From: Conexivisphaerales archaeon | GTDB lineage: Archaea; Thermoproteota; Nitrososphaeria; Conexivisphaerales; DTJL01 | DNA: 11,869 nucleotides | Assembly (NCBI GenBank): GCA_049509455.1 | Contig: JBEKZX010000047.1 | Coordinates: 1-11,869 of the forward strand | Reading direction: 5' to 3' | Part shown: positions 495 to 11,869 of the stretch, in pieces | Numbering within the stretch: position 1 is the first letter of the stretch | Layout of the letters: each line of letters opens with the position of its first letter | The notes under the pieces: model-generated | Seen by the model: only the letters and a program-made list of their open reading frames with translations | Told to the model about the DNA's origin: nothing | Database searches by the model: none | Program-made: the position numbers and the translations under genes

Positions 495-1271
495 CTATTC
501 TACCATCCCACGGATCGAAACGGAAGCGATGGCCAGGAAAAGCAAGGTGAAGCCCCCCAGGACGAGGGCGTCCAACGGAAGGGTGGAGTAGTCGCCCGTG
601 AGAATCATGGATCTGACAGCGTCCACGCCGTAGCTGAGAGGATTGAACACGGAGACGGTCTGCAGCCAGGCCGGCATCAGAGAAAGCGGGTATATGGCGT
701 TGCTGGCGAAGAAGAGCGGCATCGTGATCGCCTGTCCGATGCCCATCATCCGGTCGCGCGTCTTAAGAAAGGACGCCAGTATCATGGAAAGGGCAGAGAA
801 ACACATCGCGAAGACGACTATCGTTATGAAGACCCCCATTACGTCGAGTATGTCGAACCTCAGGTTAACTCCGATGATCAGCGCCAGGGCAAATATCATA
901 ATCGCCTGAAATATACCCCTCACTCCTGCGGCTAGCGCCTTGCCTACGATGATAGAGGACCTCGGCGAAGGCGTGGAGAGCAACTTGCTGAGCAGGCCGG
1001 CGTCCCTCTCCCAAACCACGGTGATTCCGTAGAAGATAGCTACGAAAAGGACCGACTGTGCTAGGACTCCCGGAGTTATGAACTGGATGTAGGTGTAGTT
1101 GCCTTGCGTTATGCCGCGGATAGATGTGAACACCTCGCCAAAGACCAAGAGCCAAAGCGCGGGCTGGACCAACCTGGTCCATAACTCGGTCGAATCATGG
1201 CGAATCTTCCTTGCCTCCATCTCAGCCACCGTCAACGAGCTGTGAACAAAACGAGTAATCGAGTTCATCAT
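495..1271 (-). CDS. ABC-2 type exporter permease (DrrB-like)
   Basis: 258 aa with about 6 hydrophobic segments. ABC-2 hallmarks: FITPGVLAQSVLF, WERDAGLLSKLLSTP, FASNAIYP, NPLSYGVDAVR. ATGA overlap with the ATPase gene. The start could be 1271 or 1268. Confidence 0.92.
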   Translation of the reverse strand: MMNSITRFVHSSLTVAEMEARKIRHDSTELWTRLVQPALWLLVFGEVFTSIRGITQGNYTYIQFITPGVLAQSVLFVAIFYGITVVWERDAGLLSKLLSTPSPRSSIIVGKALAAGVRGIFQAIMIFALALIIGVNLRFDILDVMGVFITIVVFAMCFSALSMILASFLKTRDRMMGIGQAITMPLFFASNAIYPLSLMPAWLQTVSVFNPLSYGVDAVRSMILTGDYSTLPLDALVLGGFTLLFLAIASVSIRGMVE

Positions 1272-2251
1272 CCAGCATGCCTCATGAAGCTTCTGCGAGC
1301 CTGACGCGCTTGCGAATAGCTCTCTACTTCCTCTATCCTGACCTTCGCGTATTTCAGGAAGACGTCGTCGAGGGTGGGCCTGTTTAGAGACATCGAAAGA
1401 ACGTGGAGGCCGTTCTGTTCGTAGTAGCCAACGATCTTGGGAATGGCTGTTTCGCCATTGAGGGTCAAAATGCTGACGGTGTCGTCCAAGACATGGACCA
1501 CTTTGCCCAACTCCGCCGGCAAGGGCATTTCAGCACCGCCGGACAGCTTGACGGTCACCATGTCCCCGCCCATTCCTCGCTTCAGTTCTGACGGAGTGCC
1601 GGCCGCAACGAACCTCCCCTGATTCATTATAGCAATGTTGTCGCAAAGCTCATCCGCCTCGGCCATGTCGTGCGTGGTAATCAAAACGGTCATGTTCAGC
1701 TCCCTGTTCAGGCGCATTATATGATTCCAGACTTGTCTCTTGGATGAAGGGTCGAGGCCGATGCTAGGTTCATCTAGAAAGAGGACACGGGGACGGCTCA
1801 CCACGGCCTCCCCGATTTCGAGTCGCCGCATCATGCCGCCAGAATAGTGCTTTACAAGATCGTTCGCCCGGTCCGTTAACTCCATCTCCGCAAGCGCCTC
1901 CTTAATCCTGACGTCGCGATCCTTCTTCTGGACGTAAAATAGCTTTGAGAATATCAGCAGGTTCTCGTATCCTGTAAGGTCGCCGTCCGCGGAGATGGCC
2001 TGGGGCACGTAGCCCATAAGCTGACGGACCTGAGAAGCAGACGACAGGGCGTCGATGCCGCATATCCGTATGGAGCCTGAAGTGGGCCTCGTCAACCCCA
2101 TGATCATCTTGATTACGGTGGTCTTGCCTGCTCCGTTGGGTCCCAGCAGCCCAAAGATTTCGCCGTCATCGACTTTGAAGCTGACCTTGTCTACGGCCGT
2201 GAAATCAGGTGGGTACGTCTTGGTGAGGTCGGTGACTTCTATGGCCGTCAA
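1268..2251 (-). CDS. ABC exporter ATP-binding subunit (DrrA-like)
   Basis: 327 aa; Walker A GPNGAGKTT, signature YSGGM, Walker B VLFLDEP, H-loop TTH, C-terminal PTLDDVFL. TTG start with GGTGTGA at 2264-2258. Confidence 0.95.
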   Translation of the reverse strand: MTAIEVTDLTKTYPPDFTAVDKVSFKVDDGEIFGLLGPNGAGKTTVIKMIMGLTRPTSGSIRICGIDALSSASQVRQLMGYVPQAISADGDLTGYENLLIFSKLFYVQKKDRDVRIKEALAEMELTDRANDLVKHYSGGMMRRLEIGEAVVSRPRVLFLDEPSIGLDPSSKRQVWNHIMRLNRELNMTVLITTHDMAEADELCDNIAIMNQGRFVAAGTPSELKRGMGGDMVTVKLSGGAEMPLPAELGKVVHVLDDTVSILTLNGETAIPKIVGYYEQNGLHVLSMSLNRPTLDDVFLKYAKVRIEEVESYSQARQARRSFMRHAG

Positions 2252-2339: not shown

Positions 2340-3383
2340 TCAGGGTAGCAAGATCCTTCGAATCATTGATGAATAGACTTCTGTGCCCCTGAGATAATCG
2401 GCGGCGCTCACCGCCTCCCGGTTCGTATGTGAAAGGGAGGCGTCACCCGGCCCGTAGGCCACGCAGGGAGCCTTCGTGGTCAAGTAGAACTGGTTCATGT
2501 CGCTCGTTCCGACCTTGACGAGAGCCCTAGGCTGGACCCCGGCGGCTCGGACGGCAGCCGACGCTGCCCCGAACACGCGGTTCGTCCTTCCTACATTGAT
2601 CGGAGGCGTCAGCTCAGAGACTCCGACTTTGACGCCCTCTGAATGCTTGCGCTGCACGACTTTCAACGCTTCGGCGGAGCGGACATCTGTAGGGATCCTG
2701 ACGTCGAGGGCGACCCTGCACCTGTCGGGGATGATGTTCTCTACCCTCCCCCCTTTGATGACCGTTATGGAGGCCGCACAGCCAAGAGCGTTGAGCTCGT
2801 CCTTGAGCCGCGACGCGAGCTCGATGCCGATTTCCACAGCGTTGACCCCTAGGGCTGCGCTCGATGCATGAGCGGCCCTTCCTTTGACGTCGAACTCTAC
2901 GCCCAGCCGTCCTCTGTAGCCCACCACGATGCCTCCTCCGGAGGGCTCCCCGAAGACTCCGCCTACGTAAGGAAGTCCCTTGGATAGCACCGTTTTCATC
3001 CCCCTCCCGTTGGTCTCTTCCCCTACCACCGCCGCGTACATGATGCCGTCCATGCAGTCGGAGGCTGAACGAGAGGCAGCCACGCACATGGCCGCCAGGG
3101 AGGCCTTGGCGTCGACCGCCCCCCTTCCTCTGATGACGCCGCCGTCAAAAGAAACGGGCAGCTTCCCAGGCACCGTGTCCATATGGCTGCAGAGAAGGAA
3201 GTATGGTCCGGCCCCCTTTCTGGCCACGACGTTGCCAGCCGAGTCGACCTCGACGCTGTCGAAAGACGAATGGGTCACCAACCATCGACGAATGACCGAT
3301 GCTATCTCGTCCTCCTTTCCGCTTGGGGAATATATTTCGACCAGGTCTCTCAGGAGGCCCAGAGCGTCCCGCTCCGATGACAT
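2340..3383 (-). CDS. lysK: [LysW]-ornithine/lysine hydrolase (LysK/ArgE-like, M20 family)
   Basis: M20 metal motifs SHMDTV, GRGAVDAK, VGEE, GEPS, GTSDMN, YGPGD..SHT..E. Start placed at the ATG at 3383 (MSSERD), 1 nt after the lysJ stop and downstream of GAGGA. The ORF track start (3392) is less likely. Confidence 0.9.
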   Translation of the reverse strand: MSSERDALGLLRDLVEIYSPSGKEDEIASVIRRWLVTHSSFDSVEVDSAGNVVARKGAGPYFLLCSHMDTVPGKLPVSFDGGVIRGRGAVDAKASLAAMCVAASRSASDCMDGIMYAAVVGEETNGRGMKTVLSKGLPYVGGVFGEPSGGGIVVGYRGRLGVEFDVKGRAAHASSAALGVNAVEIGIELASRLKDELNALGCAASITVIKGGRVENIIPDRCRVALDVRIPTDVRSAEALKVVQRKHSEGVKVGVSELTPPINVGRTNRVFGAASAAVRAAGVQPRALVKVGTSDMNQFYLTTKAPCVAYGPGDASLSHTNREAVSAADYLRGTEVYSSMIRRILLP

Positions 3384-3384
3384 C

Positions 3385-4557
3385 TCATGCATCCTCTTTG
3401 AAGGCCGTTTCGATTATGGGGACCGCCTCGGCCAAGACCGTGGCATCGATGTTGATGGGAGGCAGCATCCGCACCACGTTGAGCCCCGTCGGGATTGGCA
3501 GGAGCCCGCTGGATAGTAGCTTCCTGATTACAGGGCCGCTGGGCTGCTTGGTCTCCACCGCGAGCATGAGCCCGACGCCCCTGGCCTCCCTCACCACCGA
3601 GTGCGGCAGGCGTTCGAAGACCTCCATGAGCCTGGAGCCCATGTCGGCCGCGTTGAGCCAGAGCTTCTTCGATATCACTTCGTTGAGAGTGGCGGCACCG
3701 GCGGCGCAGGAAATGGGGTTGCCACCGAAGGTCGTGGTATGCTCTCCCTTCGACCAAACAGATGCGACCTCCGTTGTCGTCAGGACGGAGCCAATGGGGA
3801 TCCCTGAAGCCAACCCCTTCCCGAAACACATGATGTCAGGCCGGATGCCTGAGTGCTCGTGAGCCCATAGGCGGCCTGTCCGTCCCATGCCGGACTGGAT
3901 TTCGTCGACGATTAGCAGCACGCCAGCGTGCCGACAGGTCTCCTCGACCTCCTTCAGAAAACCTGAAGGTGGCACCCTGATGCCGGCCTCTCCCTGGACC
4001 GGCTCCACCATGACAGCCGCCGTTTCGCCATCAATGAGCTGGGCGACGCTCGACGAGTCACCGTATCTGGCGAATTTGGTCGGCAGCAACACGCTCTGAT
4101 ATGGCTCCCTGTACTTCGAGCCCCATGTGAGTGAAAGCGCACCGAGGGTCTTGCCGTGGTAGGCACCTTGGAAGGCGACGAAACCCTTCTTCCCCGACTT
4201 CTTGACGGCGAGCTTCATGGCGGCCTCCACAGCCTCGGCTCCGCTGTTGCAAAGGAAGGCCTTGTCCAGACCCTTGGGGGCCGCCAAGCTGAGCGCCTCC
4301 AAGAACCTCTGACGGGCGTCGTTGTAGAGGCTTCCATGGCAGACCATGAGTTTGCCTACCTGATCGACGATGGCCGCGGTGACCATAGGGGGGCGATGGC
4401 CCAGTATGGCCGTCCCATAGCCCGTAGCAAAGTCGATGAGCCTTCTATCTTCCGCGTCCCAGATGTAAGATCCCTCCCCCCTTGTGATCTTGAGGGGGAG
4501 CTTGGCGTACGTGGGGATGAGCCACTGGTCTTCGACGTTGAGGGGCTCGGCGCTCAT
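3385..4557 (-). CDS. lysJ: [LysW]-semialdehyde transaminase (LysJ/ArgD, class III PLP)
   Basis: 390 aa; NSGAEAVEAA, YHGKT, EPVQGEAG, DEIQSGMGRTG, PLP lysine in FGKGLASG, TTFGGNP. ATGA overlap with lysZ. Confidence 0.93.
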   Translation of the reverse strand: MSAEPLNVEDQWLIPTYAKLPLKITRGEGSYIWDAEDRRLIDFATGYGTAILGHRPPMVTAAIVDQVGKLMVCHGSLYNDARQRFLEALSLAAPKGLDKAFLCNSGAEAVEAAMKLAVKKSGKKGFVAFQGAYHGKTLGALSLTWGSKYREPYQSVLLPTKFARYGDSSSVAQLIDGETAAVMVEPVQGEAGIRVPPSGFLKEVEETCRHAGVLLIVDEIQSGMGRTGRLWAHEHSGIRPDIMCFGKGLASGIPIGSVLTTTEVASVWSKGEHTTTFGGNPISCAAGAATLNEVISKKLWLNAADMGSRLMEVFERLPHSVVREARGVGLMLAVETKQPSGPVIRKLLSSGLLPIPTGLNVVRMLPPINIDATVLAEAVPIIETAFKEDA

Positions 4558-5354
4558 TCGATGACCGTCCCCTTTCCTTCCGACAGCGCGGCGCTTATCG
4601 GCCGTTCAACCTTTCCGTTGGATATGATCACTTTGGAGACGCCGCCCTTCAGCGCCTTGGAGGCCGAAAGGAGCTTGCGATTCATGCCCACCCCAGTATT
4701 CTTAATCAGGGCCTCCAACTCGTCGGCTGAGACCTTGGAAACGACCTTTCCGTCAACGAGCAGGCCGTCCACGTCAGTGAGGAATAGCAATGAGTCAGCT
4801 TTCAAGGCTGATGCGATGGCTGCCGCCGCGGAGTCCCCGTCCATGTTCACTAAATCCTTGCTCGCGTCCATGCCCAAGGGGGCGACGACGGGAACGATGG
4901 ACAATTCGAAAAGGCTCTTGATCAGCCCAGAGTTGACGGCGATAGGCCTCCCGGAATGGCCTCCGTCGATGGCCATCTTCCTTCCCTGGTTGACGACCAG
5001 AATCTTCTCCCGCCGCTCTGCCTGCATGAGTCCGCAATCGGCCCCCGTAAGGCCCAGCGCTTGGACGCCTTGACGCTCCAGCGCCTGGACGACGCGCGTG
5101 TTCACCAAGCCCGCCAAGACCATTAGACAGGCTTGAAGGGTGTCGTCGTCGGTGTACCTGCTGCGGACTCCAGAAGGGGCGGTGACGAACTTCTGCTTTA
5201 TCCCCATGCGCTCGCCGAACCTGGTAACGAGGTCTCCCCCTCCGTGCACGATGGCTAGCGGACCGAGGCTGCGGTTGGACGCGATGTCAGCCCCGATTCC
5301 GTCTAGGAAGGGGCCTTCGGTGAGCCGTCCGCCTATCTTTACGATTGTCACCAA
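4554..5354 (-). CDS. lysZ: [LysW]-glutamate/aminoadipate kinase (LysZ/ArgB)
   Basis: 266 aa amino-acid kinase fold: VKIGG, IVHGGG, SRYTD, NMDGD, LTDVDG, GMNRKL. Start is TTG 5354 or GTG 5351. Confidence 0.92.
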   Translation of the reverse strand: MVTIVKIGGRLTEGPFLDGIGADIASNRSLGPLAIVHGGGDLVTRFGERMGIKQKFVTAPSGVRSRYTDDDTLQACLMVLAGLVNTRVVQALERQGVQALGLTGADCGLMQAERREKILVVNQGRKMAIDGGHSGRPIAVNSGLIKSLFELSIVPVVAPLGMDASKDLVNMDGDSAAAAIASALKADSLLFLTDVDGLLVDGKVVSKVSADELEALIKNTGVGMNRKLLSASKALKGGVSKVIISNGKVERPISAALSEGKGTVIE

Positions 5355-5360
5355 ACGCGA

Positions 5361-6410
5361 TCACACTGGAAACACGGGAACCAAGTCTAGGCCGGAGCTC
5401 TCCGGGTAGCCGCCCATCACATTCAGACACTGCACCGCGTTGCCTGCAGCCCCTTTCATCAGGTTGTCCAGGGCGGCAACGACCATCAGATGCTTCCCGT
5501 CGGGCTCCAGCTCGAAGCCGATGTCACAGAAGTTCGAGCCGATGGAAAGCTTGGGATCGGGGAGCTTGAAGCTGCCTAGCTTGTCTTTAACGAGCCGGAT
5601 GAAATGCTCGTTACCGTAGGCGCCGCGGAGTCGCTGCCAGACGTCTTTGGCTGCGATGGGTTCCTTGGCCGTGATGTAGAGGGTGACCAGGATCCCGCGG
5701 ACCATGTTGACAGCATGGGCGGAGAAGAGGACGTCCACTCCGCCCTTATCGCGGGACCTGAGGAAGGTCCTGACTTCTGAGCCATGGCGGTGGTTCCCCA
5801 ACTTGTACGGTCTGACGGTTCCATACCTGATGGCATGCATCCCGGCGGGCGACGGCTTGGAGCCTGAGCCCGACGAGCCCACCTTGGCGTCGATAATCAG
5901 GCCTGCCTCATCATCCATGAGCTCCGTGAAAGGGGCCAAGGCTAGGATCGAAGTCAGCGCCATGCAGCCGGGGTTGGCCACAAGGTTGCTCGAAGCTATC
6001 GACGCACGGTATAGCTCCGGAAGGCCATATGCGAAATGGGACAGCAGCTGCTGGTCGGGGTGCACCATGCTGTAGTGGAGCTGGAAGTCCTCGGCCTTGG
6101 GGAGACGGTAGGCGGGGCTCATGTCTATCACCTTCACACCCGCGGACGCTAGCCTGGGGACTGCGTCAAGAGACGCCTTGAGAGGAAGAGATGTGAACAC
6201 GAGGTCGCTGTTGCTCACGATCCTCTCGAGGTCGTACGAAATGAACTGAAGATTGGAGACGCCCCGAAGGTGTGGATGAGCCCTGTGAATGAACTCGCCC
6301 GCGTACTCTCTGGAGGAGATGTTGGCAATTTCGACGGAGGGGTGCCGCAGGAGTAGGCGGAGCAGCTCTCCGCCCACGAAGCCGGAAGCACCCATGATGC
6401 TGACCTTCAT
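5361..6410 (-). CDS. lysY: [LysW]-phosphate reductase (LysY/ArgC)
   Basis: 349 aa; Rossmann GASGFVG, catalytic NPGC, GSSGSG, HRH, DNLMKGAAG. ATGA overlap with lysX. Confidence 0.94.
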   Translation of the reverse strand: MKVSIMGASGFVGGELLRLLLRHPSVEIANISSREYAGEFIHRAHPHLRGVSNLQFISYDLERIVSNSDLVFTSLPLKASLDAVPRLASAGVKVIDMSPAYRLPKAEDFQLHYSMVHPDQQLLSHFAYGLPELYRASIASSNLVANPGCMALTSILALAPFTELMDDEAGLIIDAKVGSSGSGSKPSPAGMHAIRYGTVRPYKLGNHRHGSEVRTFLRSRDKGGVDVLFSAHAVNMVRGILVTLYITAKEPIAAKDVWQRLRGAYGNEHFIRLVKDKLGSFKLPDPKLSIGSNFCDIGFELEPDGKHLMVVAALDNLMKGAAGNAVQCLNVMGGYPESSGLDLVPVFPV

Positions 6411-7255
6411 TTGGCAGCCTTCCTTAGAGCGTAATCAAGTATCCGCCCGGCTATATCGACGCCGGTTCCTCCTGCGGCGCCCCTGAACTCTACGTTGGAG
6501 TTGACTTCATGGACCATCAGGCCCTGCGGACCTTCCATGGAATCGACGCCCACTATTTCACCGCCGACGACCTCCGCTGCCTTAAGCATGAGCTCCCTCC
6601 CCTCACGGTCGAGCTGGCATGGCTTCGCAGTACCGCCGAGGGCAACGTTGGACCTCCAGTCGCCTTCTGGGGCATAGCGATAGATGCTGGCGACCACCTC
6701 GCCGCCCACGCAGACGGTGCGTATGTCCCTGCCGGGGTTCTGGATGAACTCCTGCAGATAGTAGACGTGGTCATCGGGGTCCCCGGAACCCTCCTTCAGC
6801 TCGAGGTAGGACTTCAGGGAGCGTGCATCTGAAAGGACGGCCACCTCCCTCCCCCAAGAGCCGTTGAGTGGTTTCATGACAATCGGGTAGCCCAGCTTGT
6901 CGGCTCCCTGGAGGGCGGATTCCACAGAAAATGCTTCCGCGGTCCTGGGATGCGGGATGCCAGCGCCCAGGAGCCGGAGGCCGGTGGCGAACTTGTCGCC
7001 GCATATCTCGGAGACTCTGCTGGCGTTGATGACGGTGGTCCCTCCGAGTTCGAAATACTGGGCGGCGCGTATTCCTCTGGTGTGGCTGACGCATCTTTGT
7101 AGGGCTATGCCGGGAAGGTCACGTTCGCGTGGAATCTGGTACAGCAGCCCTCGGACGTCTACTAAGTCGAGAGGTATGCCCCTTTCAGATGCCCTCGCGT
7201 GGAGCTGCTTCTCTTCCCACCGAACGCGGTCGTAGAAGAGGGTTATCTTCGTCAT
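6407..7255 (-). CDS. lysX: LysW-amino acid ligase (LysX/ArgX, RimK-family ATP-grasp)
   Basis: 282 aa; YDRVRWEE, RCVSH, GDKF, KP..GSWGR, QEFI..PGRDIR, GVD, EVN. Adjacent to lysW. Substrate (Glu vs aminoadipate) is unresolved, so it may be argX. Confidence 0.92.
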   Translation of the reverse strand: MTKITLFYDRVRWEEKQLHARASERGIPLDLVDVRGLLYQIPRERDLPGIALQRCVSHTRGIRAAQYFELGGTTVINASRVSEICGDKFATGLRLLGAGIPHPRTAEAFSVESALQGADKLGYPIVMKPLNGSWGREVAVLSDARSLKSYLELKEGSGDPDDHVYYLQEFIQNPGRDIRTVCVGGEVVASIYRYAPEGDWRSNVALGGTAKPCQLDREGRELMLKAAEVVGGEIVGVDSMEGPQGLMVHEVNSNVEFRGAAGGTGVDIAGRILDYALRKAAK

Positions 7256-7264
7256 TTGGCCGGC

Positions 7265-7435
7265 TTATTCTCCCCAGTCTTCTTCAATCTTGGGTGCAGC
7301 CACCAGCTGAACGGTGGAGCCCATTTCTTTGACCTCGAACTCTGTGCCGCAGTCGGGGCAGGAGACGATTTCACCCTTCAGCGCATCGTCGGCTACGGGC
7401 ACGCTGCCGCCACATTCCGCGCAAGTCGCGTTCAT
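7265..7435 (-). CDS. lysW: Amino-group carrier protein LysW/ArgW (56 aa)
   Basis: MNATCAECGGSVPVADDALKGEIVSCPDCGTEFEVKEMGSTVQLVAAPKIEEDWGE: two CxxC motifs, acidic, C-terminal EDWGE. ATGA overlap with the argG stop. It is the tail of the 155-aa ORF in the track. Confidence 0.97.
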   Translation of the reverse strand: MNATCAECGGSVPVADDALKGEIVSCPDCGTEFEVKEMGSTVQLVAAPKIEEDWGE

Positions 7436-8643
7436 GCTAACACCTCCTTTGTCTTCAACAGGCTTCTTCTCGCAGCCATAACGGACGGAAGCCCCCAGAG
7501 CTTGATGAATCCCTCGGCAGCCTTCTGGTCGAAGGTGGAGTCGACGCCGTATGTGGAGAGCTGTTTCTGATAGAGAGCAAAGGGAGACGACCTGCCCACA
7601 ACGCGACAAGCTCCCTTGAAGAGCTTGACCCTCGTGTCTCCGGTGACGAACTCCTGAGTTGAATCGATGAAGCTCTGCAGGTCTTTGAGCAGCGGGTCTA
7701 TCCAGAGCCCAGAGTACACGAGCCAAGACCACTGCTGTTCGACCGCGGGTTTGAAAGCAGCCTCCGACCTCGTCAGGACCAACTTTTCCAGCTCCCTGTG
7801 GGCTTCAATCAAGACCGTAGCGGCGGGGCATTCGTAGACCTCATGGGATTTTATTCCGACCGACCTGTCCTCCATGTGGTCGAGCAGCCCCACTCCATGG
7901 CTGCCGGCTAAGCGGTTCAATCGGATTATGAGATCGGAGAGCTTCATATCTTGACCGTCCAAGGAAGTGGGAACCCCTTCCTCGAAGCCGATTGTAACAT
8001 ATGATGGCTCAGCGGGCCAGAGGCCGGGCGCTCGAGTCCACTCCAGGGCTTCCTGTGGCGGCTCGTCGGCAGGGTTTTCAATGCTACCTCCCTCGACGGA
8101 CCTCCCCCACAGGTTCTGGTCAACGCTGAACTCCGACCGCTTCATTGGTGCGTCGAAGCCCTTCGACCTGAGATAGTCTACCTCTTCGTTCCGGCTGAGG
8201 TTCCATTCCCTCACGGGAGCCACCACCTTAAGGCTGGGGTTGAGGGCGCTAACGGCAAGATCGAACCTGACTTGGTCGTTGCCCTTCCCGGTGCAGCCGT
8301 GCGCCACGGCCGTCGCCCCCTCCTTCTCGGCGACTTCTACCATCTTGGCGGCGATGAGCGGGCGAGCCAAGGCCGTGCTAAGAGGGTACTTCCCCTGGTA
8401 GAGTCCGTTGGCCTTGATGGACTTGGCGATGTAGGCGTTGGCGAATTCCTCCTTTGCGTCGATCTCGAGGTGCTTGACGGCACCGAGCTCCTGGGACCTC
8501 TTGGCGATGGGAGCAAAGTTCTCCTCTTGCCCGACGTCGACAGTCAGAGTGACGACATCGTAACCATACTTCTCTTTGAGCCATAGTATAGCCGTGGTCG
8601 TGTCAAGACCTCCGGAATAGCCCAACACGATTTTGGAAGCCAT
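7432..8643 (-). CDS. argG: Argininosuccinate synthase
   Basis: 403 aa from MASKIVLGYSGGLDT; HGCTGKGNDQVRF, SVDQNLWGRS, GIKSHEVYECP, GFIKLWGL. The ORF-track start (8673) lies inside the TATA element. Confidence 0.96.
   Translation of the reverse strand: MASKIVLGYSGGLDTTTAILWLKEKYGYDVVTLTVDVGQEENFAPIAKRSQELGAVKHLEIDAKEEFANAYIAKSIKANGLYQGKYPLSTALARPLIAAKMVEVAEKEGATAVAHGCTGKGNDQVRFDLAVSALNPSLKVVAPVREWNLSRNEEVDYLRSKGFDAPMKRSEFSVDQNLWGRSVEGGSIENPADEPPQEALEWTRAPGLWPAEPSYVTIGFEEGVPTSLDGQDMKLSDLIIRLNRLAGSHGVGLLDHMEDRSVGIKSHEVYECPAATVLIEAHRELEKLVLTRSEAAFKPAVEQQWSWLVYSGLWIDPLLKDLQSFIDSTQEFVTGDTRVKLFKGACRVVGRSSPFALYQKQLSTYGVDSTFDQKAAEGFIKLWGLPSVMAARRSLLKTKEVLA
7441..7448 (-). promoter_or_regulatory. Shine-Dalgarno site for lysW
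   Basis: The minus strand reads AGGAGGTG, 5 nt upstream of the ATG at 7435. Confidence 0.85.
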
Positions 8644-8644
8644 A

Positions 8645-8655
8645 GATGCTGCATC
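8645..8655. promoter_or_regulatory. Interrupted palindrome, candidate operator at the argG start
   Basis: GATGC-T-GCATC, 1 nt from the argG ATG and near the expected argG transcription start. Confidence 0.35.
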
Positions 8656-8668
8656 GGTTCGGAGGAGC

Positions 8669-8683
8669 AACATTTAATTATTT
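8669..8683. promoter_or_regulatory. Central AT-rich element, putative bidirectional TATA for argG and the regulator-argH operon
   Basis: AACATTTAATTATTT: TTTAATTA on + and ATTAAAT on -. The core 8673-8680 is 29 nt from the argG ATG and 28 nt from the ATG at 8709. Confidence 0.65.
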
Positions 8684-8708
8684 CGGACGACGCTGGTCAG
8701 AATTAGCC

Positions 8709-9401
8709 ATGAACCGACCAAAACTGGTCACAGCCTCTATATCGAGGACGGTGAGGGAGCAGGTGAACAGCGACTCCCTGATGCAGGAGGCGTTGGCGAG
8801 GGGCATCGTGAACATGAGTGCGGCGGCCAGGCTCCTCAAGCCCGCCGTGGTCTCTAGCCTCGGCAGGAGTGTATCTGAAGAAGCCATCGTCACCTCCCTC
8901 AAGAGGATTAAGGGCGCGTACAACAGGGGTGCCCTAGGGTACCTGAGGGTCCTTGCTAAGAGCAGCGTCGAAGTCAGGACTGATTTAGCCTTGGTCTCCG
9001 TCGAATTGGACCCCGAGGTCTCCGCAAAAATCAGAGACGTCGCATTCAAGAACTATGATGCCTTTGTGCAGATTTCTAGCTCGCCCAACGCCTACAGCTT
9101 AGTCTTTGAGAGAAGCCTCTTCGGTTATCTGAAGGGCCGCTTCGAGGAGGAGCAGGTCATGGAGGCCAAGACCGAACTGGCCGCCCTCATCATCCACAGC
9201 CCCGAGGAGATAATGGAGACTCCTGGCTGTATAGCGGCGATCTACAACCGCGTTGGCAGAGGCGGGATTAACGTGGTGGACACTGTCAGCAACTATACTG
9301 ACACCATACTAGTGGTCAAGATGGATGATGTCGTCAAGGCTTTCACGGCGGTGACCGATTTGATTTCGGAAGCTCGGCGCTTGGGAGGGAGGCAGCGTTG
9401 A
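8709..9401 (+). CDS. Uncharacterised protein with N-terminal helical/HTH-like region and C-terminal ACT domain(s); putative amino-acid-responsive regulator
   Basis: 230 aa. The C-terminal LAALIIHSPEEIMETPGCIAAIYNRVGRGGINVVDTVSNYTDTILVVKMDDVVKAF fits the aspartokinase/CASTOR-type ACT pattern. The N-terminal VNMSAAARLLKP..LGRSVSEEAIVTSLKRI is HTH-like. TTGA overlap with argH. Confidence 0.75.
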   Translation: MNRPKLVTASISRTVREQVNSDSLMQEALARGIVNMSAAARLLKPAVVSSLGRSVSEEAIVTSLKRIKGAYNRGALGYLRVLAKSSVEVRTDLALVSVELDPEVSAKIRDVAFKNYDAFVQISSSPNAYSLVFERSLFGYLKGRFEEEQVMEAKTELAALIIHSPEEIMETPGCIAAIYNRVGRGGINVVDTVSNYTDTILVVKMDDVVKAFTAVTDLISEARRLGGRQR

Positions 9402-10879
9402 AGGGCGGCCTCTACCGTTCAAGGTTGGGCAAGGACATCAACTCCAGCTCTCAGCGCTTCATCGGCTCGCTGGGCGTCGACGTAGAGTTGCTGCAATATG
9501 AAATCGACAGCTCCCTAGCCCACGTGGTGATGCTGAAAGAACAGGGCTGGCTGAGCGCCGAGGATGCCAAGAAGATTGCCAAGGCTTTGAGGAAGACGGC
9601 AGAGGTTCGCGTCCCGGCCGAAGGGTTCGAAGACATACATGAATATGTGGAGACGGCGGTGACACAGATGACCTCAAAGGAGACCGGAGGGCGCCTCCAC
9701 ACGGCACGCTCGAGGAACGACCAAGTGGCTACGATAACTAGGATGATGTGTCGCGACCGCCTGTTGCAGCTGACTGAAGCGGCCGCAGGTCTGGCGAGCA
9801 CCCTCCTTGAGCTCTCCCGTCGCTACTCGTCGACCCCCGTGCTGGCATACACCCACCTGAGGCAGGCACAGCTACAGACGTTGGGCCATCACCTGCAAAG
9901 CTATGTCCAACCTCTGGTCAGGGACATCGAACGCCTTTCGGACTGCTACGGTAGGACCGATCAATGTCCGCTGGGAGCCTCTGCTGTGGCCGGCTCTACG
10001 ATTAAGGTCGACAGGAGGAGGACAAGCGAACTCCTGGGCTTCTCCTCGGTTCTCATAAATTGTGAGGACTCTGTGGAGAGCCGGGATTTCGCCGTCGAAT
10101 CAATGTTCGTTCAGTCGCTGCTCCTGGTCGGACTGAGCCGGATCGCGGAGGACATGATAATATGGTCTACATCGGAGTTTGCATACTTCGAGCTCCCTGA
10201 CGATCTGGTGTCTCCTTCGAGCGCCATGCCCCATAAGAAGAACGCCGACGTCTTGGAGATGGTCAGGGCAGATGCGGCTCTTCAAATTGCGCAGCTGGTC
10301 CAGATGCTGGTGACGCTCAAAGGCCTCACCAGCGGATATAACAGGGACCTCCAGAACGTCAAGGCCACGTTGACGGGTTCCTTTTGGACGACGCTGGATG
10401 CCATATCCTCGGTCGACATGTGCCTCAAGGGTGGCTCGTTCGATGCAAAGGAGATGCAAAGGAAGGCGGAAGGAAGCGACGTCTTCGCTCTGCCGTTGGC
10501 CGAATGGTTGGTCAGGAAGCGTGGTGTGGCCTTCAGGGAGGCGCACAGGATCGCAGGGAGAGTCGTTTTCGAGCTAGCCTCCAAGAAGAGGAGGTTCGCT
10601 GACCTGTCGCCTGGCGAACTGGCCAAGATGGTCAAGCTAGCAGGTTCGGGCTTCACATTGAGCACGGCGGAGAGCATGCATCTGCACGCGTACCTTCGAC
10701 CCGCCATGGTGCTGAAGGAAACGGCGACGGAAGGAGGGCCATCGGACGCTCAGGTACTGGCCAACTACCGCCGGCTGAAGGGCGAGCTTGCTAATCTCAT
10801 GGAGGAAGCTCGGAAGAGGGAGAAGGGGCTCTCCGAAGCCCGCAAAAGGCTTTACGCCTCCGTCTCCTCCATCGAATGA
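9398..10879 (+). CDS. argH: Argininosuccinate lyase
   Basis: 493 aa; HTARSRNDQV, YTHL..AQ, PLG...AG, SRDF, SSAMPHKKN..VLE, GYNRDLQ, FREAH. TTG start preceded by GGAGGGAGG. Confidence 0.93.
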   Translation: MKGGLYRSRLGKDINSSSQRFIGSLGVDVELLQYEIDSSLAHVVMLKEQGWLSAEDAKKIAKALRKTAEVRVPAEGFEDIHEYVETAVTQMTSKETGGRLHTARSRNDQVATITRMMCRDRLLQLTEAAAGLASTLLELSRRYSSTPVLAYTHLRQAQLQTLGHHLQSYVQPLVRDIERLSDCYGRTDQCPLGASAVAGSTIKVDRRRTSELLGFSSVLINCEDSVESRDFAVESMFVQSLLLVGLSRIAEDMIIWSTSEFAYFELPDDLVSPSSAMPHKKNADVLEMVRADAALQIAQLVQMLVTLKGLTSGYNRDLQNVKATLTGSFWTTLDAISSVDMCLKGGSFDAKEMQRKAEGSDVFALPLAEWLVRKRGVAFREAHRIAGRVVFELASKKRRFADLSPGELAKMVKLAGSGFTLSTAESMHLHAYLRPAMVLKETATEGGPSDAQVLANYRRLKGELANLMEEARKREKGLSEARKRLYASVSSIE

Positions 10880-11002: not shown

Positions 11003-11026
11003 CTTGCCTGCCTGGTGCTTGGCGTG

Positions 11027-11869
11027 TTGCACAATAGCCTTGTAGGTTGCTTCACCGCCATTATCACTCCGTTCAGTAAGGACGGCCTGTTAGACGGCGA
11101 CGGCCTGAATCAGCTACTGGACTTCCAGCTGGAAAACGGTGTCGACGGTATCGTCGTCGCGGGGACCACCGGAGAAGGTCCGACGCTTGATCACCTCGAG
11201 TTTTTGAAGGCACTCGCGCTGGTTTTGGATGGCTCAAAGGGCAAGTCCCTGACGATCGCCAACACGGGCGCCAACGATACACGAAAGGCCTTGGCTGGAA
11301 CATTGGAGGCCTGGGAACAGGGGGCCAGCGCAGCGCTGCTCGTGGACCCTTATTACAACTGCCCGAGCAGCCTAGAAATACGCCGTGAATACTACGAGCC
11401 GATCGCGAAGGCGGTCAGCGAGATGCGGCTTATCCCCTACATCATTCCAGGGCGAACCGGTACCCAGATTGCTCCCGAAGACGTAGCCATCCTAGCCAGA
11501 GGCTGCCCCAACGTCAACGCCGTGAAGGAGGCAACAGGCAGCAGCGAGAACGCGGCGGCAATAAGGTCCTTGTGCGGTGGTTCCTTCTCGATCCTGTCAG
11601 GCGATGACGAGAAGACATACGGGTTGATGACAGATCCCCGCGTCAAGGCCAACGGGACCATCTCGGTGATGTCCAACATAGCGCCGAAAGCCGTTGCCGA
11701 CTTGGTCTCCTCCGCCTTGAAGGGTGATGCAAAAAGAGCGGCCGCGATAGCTACCGCCATGAGGCCACTGTTCGAGCTGGTCACCGTCAAGACAAACGAG
11801 ATAGTCTCAGGTACCACGCTGACTGTGAAAGCGAAGAACCCCCTTCCCGTCAAGACCATGGCCGCAGTC
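11027..11869 (+). CDS. dapA: 4-hydroxy-tetrahydrodipicolinate synthase (DHDPS family), 3'-truncated by the window edge
   Basis: Own translation (absent from the ORF track): GCFTAIITPF, AGTTGE, NTGAN, DPYYN, IPYIIPGRTG (Tyr133-equivalent at 11438), VKEATG (Schiff-base Lys at 11525), LSGDD, ISVMSNIAP, NPLPVK. There is no ATG; the start is TTG 11027 or GTG 11024/11015. Confidence 0.85.
   Translation, partial: MHNSLVGCFTAIITPFSKDGLLDGDGLNQLLDFQLENGVDGIVVAGTTGEGPTLDHLEFLKALALVLDGSKGKSLTIANTGANDTRKALAGTLEAWEQGASAALLVDPYYNCPSSLEIRREYYEPIAKAVSEMRLIPYIIPGRTGTQIAPEDVAILARGCPNVNAVKEATGSSENAAAIRSLCGGSFSILSGDDEKTYGLMTDPRVKANGTISVMSNIAPKAVADLVSSALKGDAKRAAAIATAMRPLFELVTVKTNEIVSGTTLTVKAKNPLPVKTMAAV

What the first reader, a model, noticed from the sequence alone, without database searches (positions are those of the whole stretch)
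8709..9401. Candidate archaeal ArgR analogue: HTH-like + tandem ACT protein coupled to argH
Seen: a 230-aa gene at the divergence point of the arg cluster, overlapping argH by TTGA. The C-terminal ~70 aa are a clear ACT repeat (PG..A.I...V...GINV....S..T...LVV...D...A), and residues ~93-145 look like a degenerate first ACT. The N-terminal ..LGRSVSEEAIVTSLKRI echoes the ArgR winged-helix pattern G..VTQATISRDLKEL. Known: aspartokinase-type tandem ACTs bind amino acids, including arginine in eukaryotic CASTOR1; characterised archaeal amino-acid regulators are mostly Lrp/AsnC-type. Inference: this is a non-Lrp, non-ArgR arginine/ornithine/lysine sensor controlling the cluster. An allosteric partner of ArgH or LysZ is an alternative. 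It is the strongest candidate for an undescribed system here.
Basis: partly seen in the sequence, partly recalled or inferred. Interest (0 to 1): 0.72.

Follow-up and report, generated by a model that had tools for sequence, protein, structure and literature searches.

The report
Candidate archaeal arginine-operon regulator with ACT sensor
This gene encodes an uncharacterised but widespread archaeal protein (a basic helical head plus an amino-acid-sensing tandem ACT tail) that almost always sits head-to-head with arginine-pathway operons, across a promoter carrying a conserved palindrome. It is therefore a strong candidate for the arginine regulator that these archaea, which lack bacterial ArgR, have not been shown to have.

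Summary
Window 8709-9401(+) encodes a conserved 230-aa protein. It is divergent from argG-lysWXYZJK and overlaps argH by TTGA.

The C-terminal 145 residues are an aspartokinase-type tandem ACT (VIA Z 15.4). The N-terminal 80 residues are a basic (+9) five-helix domain. This domain corresponds to the start of Pfam DUF7523 and has no assignable known fold. The proposed likeness to the ArgR winged helix is not supported.

The family is large (333 clusters at E<1e-30) and occurs in about half of the 401 same-phylum genomes sampled. In a tree of 94 members, the window's clade has 50 members, and all 50 are divergent from argG or carA. Paralogues sit divergent from amino-acid or peptide ABC transporters, or from hsp20.

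The arg-linked promoters carry a dyad, TTTYGGYC-N6-GRCCAAAA, directly beside the TATA box. The window's version lies at 8681-8702. Paralogues carry other palindromes, and these track a change in helix 4.

Best reading (about 0.6): a new ligand-responsive transcription regulator of arginine genes, probably a repressor that responds to arginine. DNA binding and the ligand are untested. First readers of this scan noted the same gene in two other genomes. No paper on the family was found.

The parts
8709..9401 (+). Regulator candidate CDS, 230 aa (P0001), stop included.
   Evidence: Translation; 97 homologues; alignment A1; AlphaFold2 model with pLDDT 87.8.
8724..8960 (+). N-terminal basic five-helix domain (residues 6-84). 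It corresponds to the first ~50-70 positions of Pfam DUF7523 and is the proposed DNA-binding domain. N35 and R66 are invariant, and K65 is specific to the arg clade.
   Evidence: DUF7523 is matched by 40 of 59 N-domains, best E 1.5e-10. Model of the domain alone has pLDDT 86. Net charge is +9 against -6 for the ACT pair. Best fold-search Z is 5.4, which is inconclusive. K65 as a clade-specific position.
8964..9155 (+). ACT1 (residues 86-149). The fold is intact but the ligand loop is not conserved.
   Evidence: Secondary structure; VIA and Foldseek alignments span residues 77-223; conservation.
9156..9389 (+). ACT2 (residues 150-227) with the conserved SP...TPGC loop and the IN(I/V)xD motif. 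This is the proposed amino-acid binding site.
   Evidence: ACT_7 match to residues 155-215; invariant S164, P172, G173, N188, S194, T199; C174 and position 190 are clade-specific.
8644..8708 (.). 65-nt divergent promoter spacer between argG (start 8643, minus strand) and the regulator gene.
   Evidence: Sequence. The footprint alignment A3 shows the TATA-to-ATG 45 nt nearly invariant, while the argG-proximal half varies.
8673..8680 (.). Single central TATA-like element TTTAATTA, inferred to serve both directions.
   Evidence: Sequence; palindromic core TAATTA; equivalent TATA boxes at the same place in 39 of 49 clade-A loci.
8681..8702 (.). Candidate operator TTTCGGAC-GACGCT-GGTCAGAA, a degenerate copy of the clade consensus TTTYGGYC-N6-GRCCAAAA. 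The first half coincides with the expected BRE of the argG promoter (CCGAAA on the minus strand). The whole element lies between the TATA box and the regulator's start codon.
   Evidence: matrix from 31 distinct sites; invariant among close relatives except two transitions.
7432..8643 (-). argG (argininosuccinate synthase), first gene of the divergent operon.
   Evidence: Pfam; 403-aa gene calls in relatives.
7265..7435 (-). lysW (56-aa carrier protein). Its ATG overlaps the argG stop.
   Evidence: Translation; Zn_ribbon_LysW in the same position in relatives.
2340..7255 (-). lysX, lysY, lysZ, lysJ and lysK, downstream of argG-lysW on the same strand.
   Evidence: Pfam.
9398..10879 (+). argH (argininosuccinate lyase). 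Its start overlaps the regulator's stop (TTGA).

Best explanation
The gene encodes a one-component, ligand-responsive transcription regulator of a previously uncharacterised archaeal family (DUF7523 N-domain plus aspartokinase-type tandem ACT).

Proposed mechanism:
- The protein forms a dimer through its ACT pair (inferred).
- The two basic N-terminal helical domains bind the dyad TTTYGGYC-N6-GRCCAAAA next to the single TATA box of the argG/regulator bidirectional promoter.
- There the protein covers the BRE of the argG-lysWXYZJK promoter and the TATA-to-start region of its own regulator-argH transcript. Occupancy should therefore shut both directions, giving repression plus autoregulation.
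- An amino acid bound at the conserved ACT2 loop sets the occupancy. L-arginine, the end product, is the most likely ligand.

Shown here: the domain architecture, the family's size, its near-obligate linkage to arg/car operons, the conserved dyad, and the absence of ArgR.

Inferred: DNA binding by this protein, dimerisation, the sign of regulation, and the ligand.
For: **Architecture**
- The tandem ACT matches aspartokinase regulatory domains: Z 15.4, 14.7 and 14.2, Foldseek E 1e-7.
- The N-domain is a separate five-helix unit. Its net charge is +9 against -6 for the ACT pair. The family means are +4.3 and -1.6, and the N-domain is positive in 81 of 94 members.

**Gene context**
- Homologues from Hyperthermus butylicus, Nitrososphaera and other MAGs are divergent from argG or carA.
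- Of 94 fetched loci other than the window, 60 are divergent from argG or carA across 60-130 bp, and 6 more are co-directional with argG-argH. All 29 loci from relatives are divergent.
- The tree shows a split with SH-aLRT support of 100. The window's clade has 50 rows, all linked to argG (38) or carA (12).

**Paralogues behave like local regulators**
- They sit divergent from polar amino-acid ABC transporters, Opp-type ABC transporters, or hsp20(-cdc48).

**Operator**
- The half-site occurs in 42 of 61 arg-divergent promoters and in 0 of 34 other loci.
- Its density is 6.98 per kb in these promoters against 0.32 per kb elsewhere in the same loci. Dyads number 8 in 9.5 kb against 4 in 573 kb.
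- A matrix anchored only on half 1 recovers the mirrored half 2 at positions 16-22.
- The strict dyad is unique in two whole genomes, and it lies at this promoter.
- Among close relatives the TATA-to-ATG segment is nearly invariant while the rest of the spacer varies.

**Covariation**
- The TTGG-type operator occurs only with the helix-4 motif [ST/A][AS][LV][KR]R.
- Members with IK(M/V/A)AL(I/V)R lack it. Many of those carry TGTAAC/GTTACA palindromes instead, including arg-linked ones.
- Positions that separate the two clades fall on helix 4 (K65) and the ACT2 loop (C174, position 190), plus position 95 on ACT1.

**An open niche**
- The ArgR N-domain was found in 1 of 151 genomes of the phylum and not in this genome, while the bacterial controls were positive.
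Against: - No experiment or structural match shows that the N-domain binds DNA. Foldseek gave nothing at E<5, and the best VIA score is Z 5.4, within the noise range for small helical domains. The profile found no related sequence in the PDB.
- Half 1 of the dyad coincides with the expected BRE of the argG promoter, so part of its conservation may reflect the basal promoter.
- The window's own half 2 (GGTCAGAA) is degenerate.
- The motif patterns were defined after looking at the data, and related genomes are not independent samples.
- Another regulator could be the protein that binds the dyad.
- In genomes with a single carA-linked copy, the argG promoter elsewhere shows no such site. A wider regulon is therefore not shown.
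- The TTGA coupling to argH could instead point to a stoichiometric protein partner.
Confidence: 0.6

Rival explanations
1. The protein does not bind DNA. It is a stand-alone ACT sensor that acts through protein contacts. It could be an allosteric regulatory subunit of an arginine-pathway enzyme (ArgH, ArgG, carbamoyl-phosphate synthetase, or the ACT-less amino-acid kinase LysZ). Alternatively it could be a co-regulator that binds another transcription factor, as E. coli GcvR does with GcvA (recalled from the literature).
For: - The ACT pair is most like the aspartokinase regulatory module and the stand-alone tandem-ACT proteins VC0802 and Atu0741 (Z 12.5 and 10.7).
- LysZ belongs to the same kinase family as aspartokinase but lacks ACT domains.
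- Overlapping stop and start codons with argH suggest co-production.
- The N-domain has no proven DNA-binding fold.
Against: - The linked partner changes between argG, carA, ABC transporters and hsp20, while the divergent layout across a short promoter persists. Regulatory subunits are usually co-transcribed with one fixed catalytic partner.
- Coupling to argH is confined to the window's lineage and a few others.
- The N-domain is strongly basic.
- Palindromes in the promoters covary with helix 4.
- The genome's two aspartokinases carry their own ACT domains.
Confidence: 0.2
2. The protein binds RNA rather than DNA. It would control translation or stability of the near-leaderless argG and regulator-argH transcripts in response to an amino acid.
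For: - The N-domain is basic.
- Conserved sequence extends up to and into the first codons: GACCAAAA at 8716-8723 and TGGTCA at 8725-8730.
- The weak structural matches include tRNA-binding and ribosomal helical domains.
Against: - The conserved element is a DNA-style dyad placed next to the TATA box. Part of it lies upstream of any plausible transcript start for the regulator gene, and it lies entirely upstream of the argG promoter.
- No Rfam element is present in the window.
Confidence: 0.07
3. The protein is a true, highly diverged homologue of bacterial ArgR (winged helix plus arginine-binding oligomerisation domain).
For:
- The ArgR oligomerisation domain appears among weak structural matches to the ACT region (Z 6.7; 1b4b and 3v4g).
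Against: - There is no Arg_repressor or ArgR C-domain Pfam hit even at E<=10.
- The N-domain has no beta wing.
- Z 6.7 covers a single ferredoxin-like unit and ranks far below aspartokinase (Z 15).
- ArgR has one alpha/beta domain that forms hexamers, not a tandem ACT.
Confidence: 0.02

Closest known systems
Regulatory tandem-ACT module of aspartokinases (e.g. PDB 5yei, 6mx1, 3c1m, 2dtj/3ab4 beta subunit)
   Same: Two consecutive beta-alpha-beta-beta-alpha-beta units with the same topology (Z 14-15, rmsd 2.4-2.7, 135-141 aligned residues). The PG-containing beta1-alpha1 loop and the 'INI' strand typical of amino-acid-binding ACTs are present.
   Different: There is no kinase domain. The module is not nested in or next to an aspartokinase gene, and the genome's aspartokinases have their own ACTs. 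It carries an extra 80-residue basic N-domain. Only the second ACT keeps a conserved ligand loop.
Stand-alone tandem-ACT proteins of the ACT_7 type (VC0802, PDB 1zvp; Atu0741, PDB 1zhv; YdjB, PDB 9vp8)
   Same: Free-standing pair of ACT domains of the same Pfam type (Z 12.5, 10.7 and 8.1).
   Different: Those proteins are about 130 aa and have no N-terminal domain. Their functions are unknown, and no arg-operon linkage was tested here.
Bacterial arginine repressor ArgR/AhrC
   Same: The proposed role is the same: an end-product-sensing repressor whose operator overlaps arg promoters, with autoregulation. It is a functional analogue.
   Different: The DNA-binding domain is unrelated (no wing, no Pfam match), the sensor fold and likely oligomer differ, and the distribution is archaeal. 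ArgR was not found in 150 of 151 genomes of this phylum.
Archaeal Lrp/AsnC-type amino-acid regulators such as LysM of Sulfolobus (PMC8578740 and references therein)
   Same: An archaeal regulator of LysW-pathway genes that responds to amino acids through an ACT-like (RAM) domain.
   Different: The target has no HTH_AsnC or AsnC_trans_reg match. Its sensor is a tandem aspartokinase-type ACT rather than a single RAM domain, and its head domain is different.
Pfam DUF7523 (PF24367), a family of unknown function. Among 14 control genomes it rings only in Haloferax volcanii.
   Same: The N-domain of the target family matches the first ~50-110 positions of this model. The window scores 19.5-22.6 bits, and relatives reach 51.8 bits.
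   Different: The window protein is below the gathering cut-off. The Pfam entry carries no function, and no paper mentions it.
CASTOR1/CASTOR2 (eukaryotic arginine sensors)
   Same: ACT-based amino-acid sensing. Weak structural similarity (Z 7.0-7.7).
   Different: They are much more distant than aspartokinase ACTs, have a four-ACT architecture, and signal by protein-protein contact with no DNA link.

Membership tests
Aspartokinase-type tandem ACT (Pfam ACT_7, PF13840) | Two consecutive beta-alpha-beta-beta-alpha-beta ACT units superposable on aspartokinase regulatory domains. | tested here: met
   AlphaFold2 secondary structure; Foldseek E 1e-7; VIA Z 15.4, rmsd 2.7, 140 aligned residues.
Aspartokinase-type tandem ACT (Pfam ACT_7, PF13840) | Sequence score above the Pfam gathering cut-off (27 bits). 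| tested here: inconclusive
   The window protein scores 18.5 bits. Homologues in the same alignment score 39-49 bits, and many carry a precomputed PF13840 hit.
Aspartokinase-type tandem ACT (Pfam ACT_7, PF13840) | Binds an amino acid at the ACT interface. | not testable with these tools
   Only conservation of the SP...TPG(C) loop and of N188, S194 and T199 is seen.
DUF7523 (PF24367) | Match to the family HMM above 27 bits. | tested here: inconclusive
   The window scores 19.5 bits for the whole protein and 22.6 bits for the N-domain alone. Forty of 59 family N-domains match, and relatives reach 49-52 bits.
ArgR/AhrC arginine repressor | N-terminal winged helix-turn-helix (Pfam Arg_repressor, PF01316). 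| tested here: not met
   No hit at E<=10. The model is all-helical with no beta wing.
ArgR/AhrC arginine repressor | C-terminal arginine-binding oligomerisation domain (single alpha/beta unit that forms trimers and hexamers). | tested here: not met
   No Pfam hit. The only similarity is a generic ferredoxin-like match at Z 6.7, against Z 15 for aspartokinase ACT pairs.
Lrp/AsnC regulators | HTH_AsnC-type head plus an AsnC_trans_reg (RAM) domain. | tested here: not met
   Neither domain was found at E<=10. A genuine Lrp/AsnC gene elsewhere in the genome was detected with the same tool.
Helix-turn-helix DNA-binding domains in general | Tri-helical core superposable on known HTH domains, with basic residues on a recognition helix. 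| tested here: inconclusive
   The best matches are small DNA-binding helical domains (BEN domain with DNA, Slx4 CCD, Fur, homeodomain, Z-alpha), but only at Z 4-5.4. Foldseek found nothing at E<5. The domain is basic, R66 and N35 are invariant, and helix 4 covaries with the promoter palindrome.
Locally acting autoregulated transcription factor (functional class) | Gene divergent from its target operon, with a conserved dyad in the shared promoter. | tested here: met
   Sixty of the 94 fetched loci other than the window are divergent from argG or carA, as are all 50 members of clade A, which includes the window.
Locally acting autoregulated transcription factor (functional class) | The protein itself binds that dyad and changes transcription. 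| not testable with these tools
   This needs EMSA or footprinting, ChIP, or in-vitro transcription.
CASTOR-type arginine sensor | Four-ACT architecture with an arginine pocket at the ACT2-ACT4 interface. | tested here: inconclusive
   Only two ACTs are present. Z is 7.0-7.7 to apo CASTOR1/2, well below the aspartokinase matches.

The most novel reading that the evidence does not exclude
This protein is the founding example of a new superfamily of archaeal one-component transcription factors. Its DNA-binding head (the DUF7523 N-domain) is a fold not yet recognised as DNA-binding, and its sensor is a tandem ACT. Clade A would be the long-missing arginine/carbamoyl-phosphate regulator of Thermoproteota, including ammonia-oxidising lineages. 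Sister clades would control amino-acid and peptide uptake systems, and would control the hsp20-cdc48 heat-shock pair.
Probability: 0.5. Interest if true: 0.82.

Novelty: new variant of a known kind. Interest (0 to 1): 0.72.

Why it matters
I know of no characterised regulator of arginine biosynthesis for most archaea, and I found none here. ArgR is essentially absent from this phylum.

If the reading holds, one promoter-sized element and one 230-aa protein would explain control of nearly the whole pathway. That covers argG-lysWXYZJK in one direction and argH in the other, or carAB in other lineages.

The family is large and easy to recognise. Each member comes with its own predicted operator next to it, so a handful of gel-shift and ligand-binding assays could assign a DNA-binding domain, a motif code (helix 4 against half-site) and effectors to hundreds of genes now labelled 'ACT domain-containing protein', 'hypothetical' or, wrongly, 'aspartokinase'.

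The hsp20-linked paralogues would also offer a candidate heat-shock regulator for ammonia-oxidising archaea.

Tried and rejected
- **Homodimer prediction.** There is no result.
- **ArgR-like winged helix.** Rejected.
- **Detached aspartokinase beta subunit.** Rejected, because both aspartokinases of the genome carry their own ACT domains. The 'aspartokinase' labels that JGI gives to homologues are misnomers, since there is no AA_kinase domain.
- **Known fold for the N-domain.** Foldseek against the PDB gave nothing at E<5. VIA-wide gave at most Z 5.4. The profile-to-PDB sequence search gave only E>0.3. The ESM Atlas returned only unnamed or DUF7523 clusters.
- **Genome-wide scan for the window-type dyad in the window's own genome.** There were 21 hits. 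Many lie inside what look like ABC-ATPase Walker-A coding sequences. Only the window's own site and one at C69:~8610-8630 lie in AT-rich upstream DNA. That second site lies upstream of a 328-aa ORF that looks like an ABC ATPase; the ORF was not scanned against Pfam and the hit was not pursued.
- **Wider regulon.** The strict dyad hits only the regulator's own promoter in two genomes. The argG promoters in three genomes whose single copy is carA-linked show no site.
- **Perfect 6-nt inverted repeats.** Only modest enrichment: 42 of 93 regions against a shuffle mean of 25 and maximum of 37.
- **RNA element.** No Rfam family in the window.
- **Fused 460-485-aa forms.** The N-terminal half gave no Pfam hit at E<=0.01, and the profile comparison aligned only the C-terminal half.
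- **Literature.** 'DUF7523' gave 0 papers. Five further searches found no paper on this family. Subscription journals are not covered. From memory, which I did not check, older COG or arCOG labels such as 'predicted regulator of amino acid metabolism, contains ACT domain' may cover related proteins.
Full report
**The gene and its setting**

Window 8709-9401(+) is an open frame of 230 codons. Homologues of 229-230 aa begin with the same MNRPKLVT. I therefore take 8709 as the start rather than the upstream ATG at 8646.

The stop codon overlaps the TTG start of argH (TTGA at 9398-9401). On the other strand, argG begins at 8643, because relatives call a 403-aa product. It is followed by lysW (7265-7435, its ATG overlapping the argG stop) and then lysX, lysY, lysZ, lysJ and lysK. 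A DHDPS (dapA-like) gene follows argH.

So a single 65-nt spacer (8644-8708) separates two transcription units that together hold most of an arginine pathway. No Rfam family is present in the window.

**The protein**

For this sequence Pfam gives only sub-threshold hits: DUF7523 on residues 11-66 and ACT_7 on residues 155-215.

An AlphaFold2 model built on 30 homologues is confident (pLDDT 87.8). It shows five helices (residues 11-83) followed by two beta-alpha-beta-beta-alpha-beta units (86-227).

The ACT pair matches the regulatory module of aspartokinases:
- Foldseek E 1e-7.
- VIA Z 15.4 to 5yei, 14.7 to 6mx1 and 14.2 to 3c1m, with rmsd 2.4-2.7 over 135-141 residues.
- Stand-alone tandem-ACT proteins come next: VC0802 at Z 12.5 and Atu0741 at Z 10.7.
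- CASTOR1/2 are far weaker (Z 7.0-7.7), as is the ArgR oligomerisation domain (Z 6.7).

Conservation is concentrated in ACT2 (S164, P165, T171, P172, G173, N188, S194, T199). The equivalent loop of ACT1 is not conserved.

**The N-domain**

I folded the N-domain alone on 59 sequences (A2; pLDDT 86). It is a wingless five-helix bundle.
- It matches DUF7523 in 40 of the 59 members.
- It has no sequence relative in the PDB.
- Foldseek found nothing at E<5.
- VIA found only Z 4-5.4 matches. Many of these are small DNA-binding helical domains, but by the tool's own calibration this range is uninformative.

The claimed resemblance to the ArgR winged helix is not supported.

The domain is nevertheless strongly basic. 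Its net charge is +9, against -6 for the ACT pair. The family means are +4.3 and -1.6. N35 and R66 are invariant.

**The family**

The protein is not an orphan.
- A word-indexed search found 97 relatives. The few that carry organism names come from Nitrososphaera, Nitrososphaerota, Aigarchaeota, Bathyarchaeota and Hyperthermus butylicus. They are labelled 'ACT domain-containing protein', 'hypothetical' or, wrongly, 'aspartokinase'.
- A full profile search found 2771 representative clusters at E<=1e-3 and 333 at E<=1e-30. Nearly all are about 215-240 aa, and a few are 460-485-aa fusions.
- In an even sample of 401 genomes of the window's phylum, 199 have a match at E<=1e-10.
- The window's genome has a second, distant copy on contig C77.

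**Gene context**

This is the strongest evidence.
- The first four homologues I looked up span 33-42% identity to the window protein. All are divergent from argG(-argH)(-carAB or -lysW...) or from carAB.
- I then fetched about 16 kb around 60 matches in the phylum sample, choosing roughly one per genus plus some second copies. I also took the best match in 29 relatives.
- Of the 94 loci other than the window, 60 have the homologue divergent from argG or carA across about 60-130 bp. Six more have it co-directional with argG-argH. All 29 loci from relatives are divergent.
- By my rough estimate, chance adjacency to one of two particular genes in a genome of about 1800 genes is near 0.2%.

A quick IQ-TREE tree of 94 members splits with SH-aLRT support of 100.
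- Clade A has 50 rows and includes the window. Every member is divergent from argG (38) or carA (12).
- Clade B has 44 rows and is mixed. Eleven are divergent from polar amino-acid ABC transporters (SBP_bac_3, permease, ATPase). Three are divergent from Opp-type transporters. Five are divergent from hsp20, which is followed by cdc48 in the four f2-family loci. The rest comprise ten arg-divergent, six co-directional with argG-argH, and nine others.
- Some genomes carry two clade-A paralogues, one facing carA and one facing argG.

The partner operon changes, but the head-to-head layout across a promoter persists. This pattern is typical of a locally acting, autoregulated transcription factor. 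It is unusual for an enzyme's regulatory subunit.

**The promoters**

I oriented all the arg-divergent spacers with the regulator gene to the right. Most clade-A loci then show a TATA box (TTTATATA or similar) followed within a few bases by TTTYGGYC. About six bases further on lies its mirror, GRCCAAAA. Examples:
- TTTTGGTCAGTATTGACCCAA
- TTTGGCTTTAGGTAGCCAAA
- TTTTGGCCAAAAACGGCCAAAA

Quantified:
- The half-site is present in 42 of 61 arg-divergent promoter regions and in 0 of 34 other loci.
- Its density is 6.98 per kb there, against 0.32 per kb in the remaining 573 kb of the same loci. Dyads number 8 against 4.
- A matrix of 31 distinct sites, anchored only on TTYGG, recovers R-Y-C-A-A-A-A at positions 16-22.
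- The strict dyad occurs once per genome in two genomes, at exactly this promoter.

In the window the element is TTTCGGAC-GACGCT-GGTCAGAA (8681-8702). Its second half is degenerate. Among the window and three close relatives (about 83% protein identity), the 45 nt from the TATA box to the ATG show only two substitutions. The argG-proximal half of the spacer varies freely.

Caveats:
- I defined these patterns after seeing the data.
- Related genomes are not independent.
- Half 1 coincides with the expected BRE of the argG promoter (CCGAAA or CCAAAA on the minus strand, directly upstream of the TATA box). Part of its conservation may therefore reflect the basal promoter.

**Covariation**

Clade-B promoters lack the TTGG dyad.
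- ABC- and Opp-linked members often carry TGTAAC/GTTACA palindromes, for example TGTTACAAATGTAAC. This holds for 9 of 14 such loci, against 5 of 61 arg-divergent loci.
- hsp20-linked members carry ATGACAT/TTACAT repeats.

The operator type tracks helix 4 of the N-domain.
- Every locus with the TTGG half-site has [ST/A][AS][LV][KR]R.
- No locus with IK(M/V/A)AL(I/V)R has it. This includes arg-linked clade-B members such as the Hyperthermus protein.

The positions that best separate the clades are K65 on helix 4, position 95 on ACT1, C174 in the ACT2 loop, and position 190. This fits helix 4 reading the DNA and ACT2 reading the ligand. It is also a lineage signal, so it is supportive rather than decisive.

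**Proposed mechanism**

The proposed mechanism is inferred. An ACT-mediated dimer would place two basic N-domains on the dyad. The dyad abuts the single TATA box. Binding would therefore cover the BRE of the argG-lysWXYZJK promoter. It would also cover the TATA-to-start segment of the regulator-argH transcript. In archaea, regulators bound at those positions generally repress (general knowledge).

The end product L-arginine is the most economical effector for a clade tied to argG, argH and carAB. Ornithine, citrulline or lysine cannot be excluded.

An activator mode remains possible, with binding just upstream of the argG BRE/TATA when ligand is absent, as reported for LysM.

The canonical ArgR head domain was found in only 1 of 151 genomes of the phylum and not in this genome, while the bacterial controls were positive. 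The role is therefore open.

**Rivals**

- **A protein-contact sensor** (about 0.2): a regulatory subunit of ArgH, ArgG, CPSase or the ACT-less kinase LysZ, or a GcvR-like co-regulator. It is favoured by the aspartokinase likeness, the coupling to argH and the unassigned N-domain fold. It is disfavoured by the changing partners, the divergent layout, the basic head and the promoter palindromes. The genome's two aspartokinases have their own ACTs.
- **An RNA-binding role** (about 0.07).
- **True ArgR homology** (about 0.02).

**Novelty**

No paper mentions DUF7523. Five further full-text searches found nothing on this family. Subscription journals are not covered, and older COG-style labels may exist; I did not check that recollection.

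First readers of this scan noted the same gene in two other genomes without testing it.

Ligand-sensing one-component regulators are a known kind, and ACT-like sensors occur in Lrp, NikR and TyrR. I therefore class this as a new variant of a known kind. The new elements are a DNA-binding head not assignable to any known family, an aspartokinase-type tandem ACT sensor, a predicted operator, and a predicted role that fills a real gap.

Noticed in passing
Own genome contig C77:11436-12140 (locus L007:11436-12140, + strand): A distant paralogue of the target (E 8e-27 to the family profile) lies divergent from an hsp20 gene and next to an Lrp/AsnC gene. In the tree it groups with members from four loci of the same class (L057-L060) that are divergent from hsp20-cdc48. 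Their spacers hold repeated ATGACAT/TTACAT elements. This is a candidate heat-shock regulator, analogous in role to Phr of Pyrococcus (the Phr comparison is from memory).
   Followed up: partly
Loci L031, L035, L039, L040, L046, L048, L050, L063 (also L045, L047, L064) and L037, L043, L066: Clade-B paralogues sit divergent from polar amino-acid ABC transporter operons (SBP_bac_3, BPD_transp_1, ABC_tran) or from Opp/Dpp-type operons (SBP_bac_5). Many of their spacers carry TGTTACA-N-TGTAACA palindromes.
   Followed up: partly
L077/L104 (genome G421) and L084/L105 (genome G410): Some genomes of the window's order carry two clade-A paralogues, one facing carA and one facing argG. Each has its own TTGG-type dyad, which suggests a dedicated regulator for each operon.
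   Followed up: partly
Proteins P0140, P0143, P0176, P0213 (460-485 aa): These are fused forms. The whole family unit occupies the C-terminal half. The N-terminal ~250 residues have no Pfam match at E<=0.01.
   Followed up: partly
Window 8631-8636 and 8716-8730: There are further half-site-like words inside the first codons of both divergent genes: TTTTGG in argG (8631-8636), and GACCAAAA (8716-8723) followed by TGGTCA (8725-8730) in the regulator gene. They lie roughly symmetrically around the TATA box. They could be auxiliary operator sites or simply Lys/Pro codons.
   Followed up: no
Own genome, all contigs: carA and carB were not found with archaeal CarA/CarB queries (tblastn, E<=1e-5). 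The only hit was a weak ATP-grasp match to lysX. The assembly is 95.5% complete. Either the genes lie on unassembled DNA or carbamoyl phosphate comes from another route. A 320-aa AA_kinase-family frame on C108 might be a carbamate kinase.
   Followed up: no
Own genome C69:~8610-8630 (minus strand): This is the only other AT-context match to the window-type dyad (TTTCGGTC-TAGGTA-GGTCGAAG). It lies about 70-85 nt upstream of a 328-aa ORF (7557-8543, minus strand) that looks like an ABC ATPase from its N-terminus. The ORF was not scanned against Pfam.
   Followed up: no
Window 495-2251 (minus strand): An ABC-2 type exporter pair (ATPase with a DrrA-like C-domain, plus an ABC2 membrane protein) lies downstream of lysK. 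No link to the arginine genes was examined.
   Followed up: no
Window 11015-11869 and relatives' loci: dapA (DHDPS), followed by dapB in relatives, comes after argH on the same strand with a gap of about 135 nt. So a lysine (DAP) pathway entry sits beside a LysW-type cluster that here looks dedicated to arginine.
   Followed up: no
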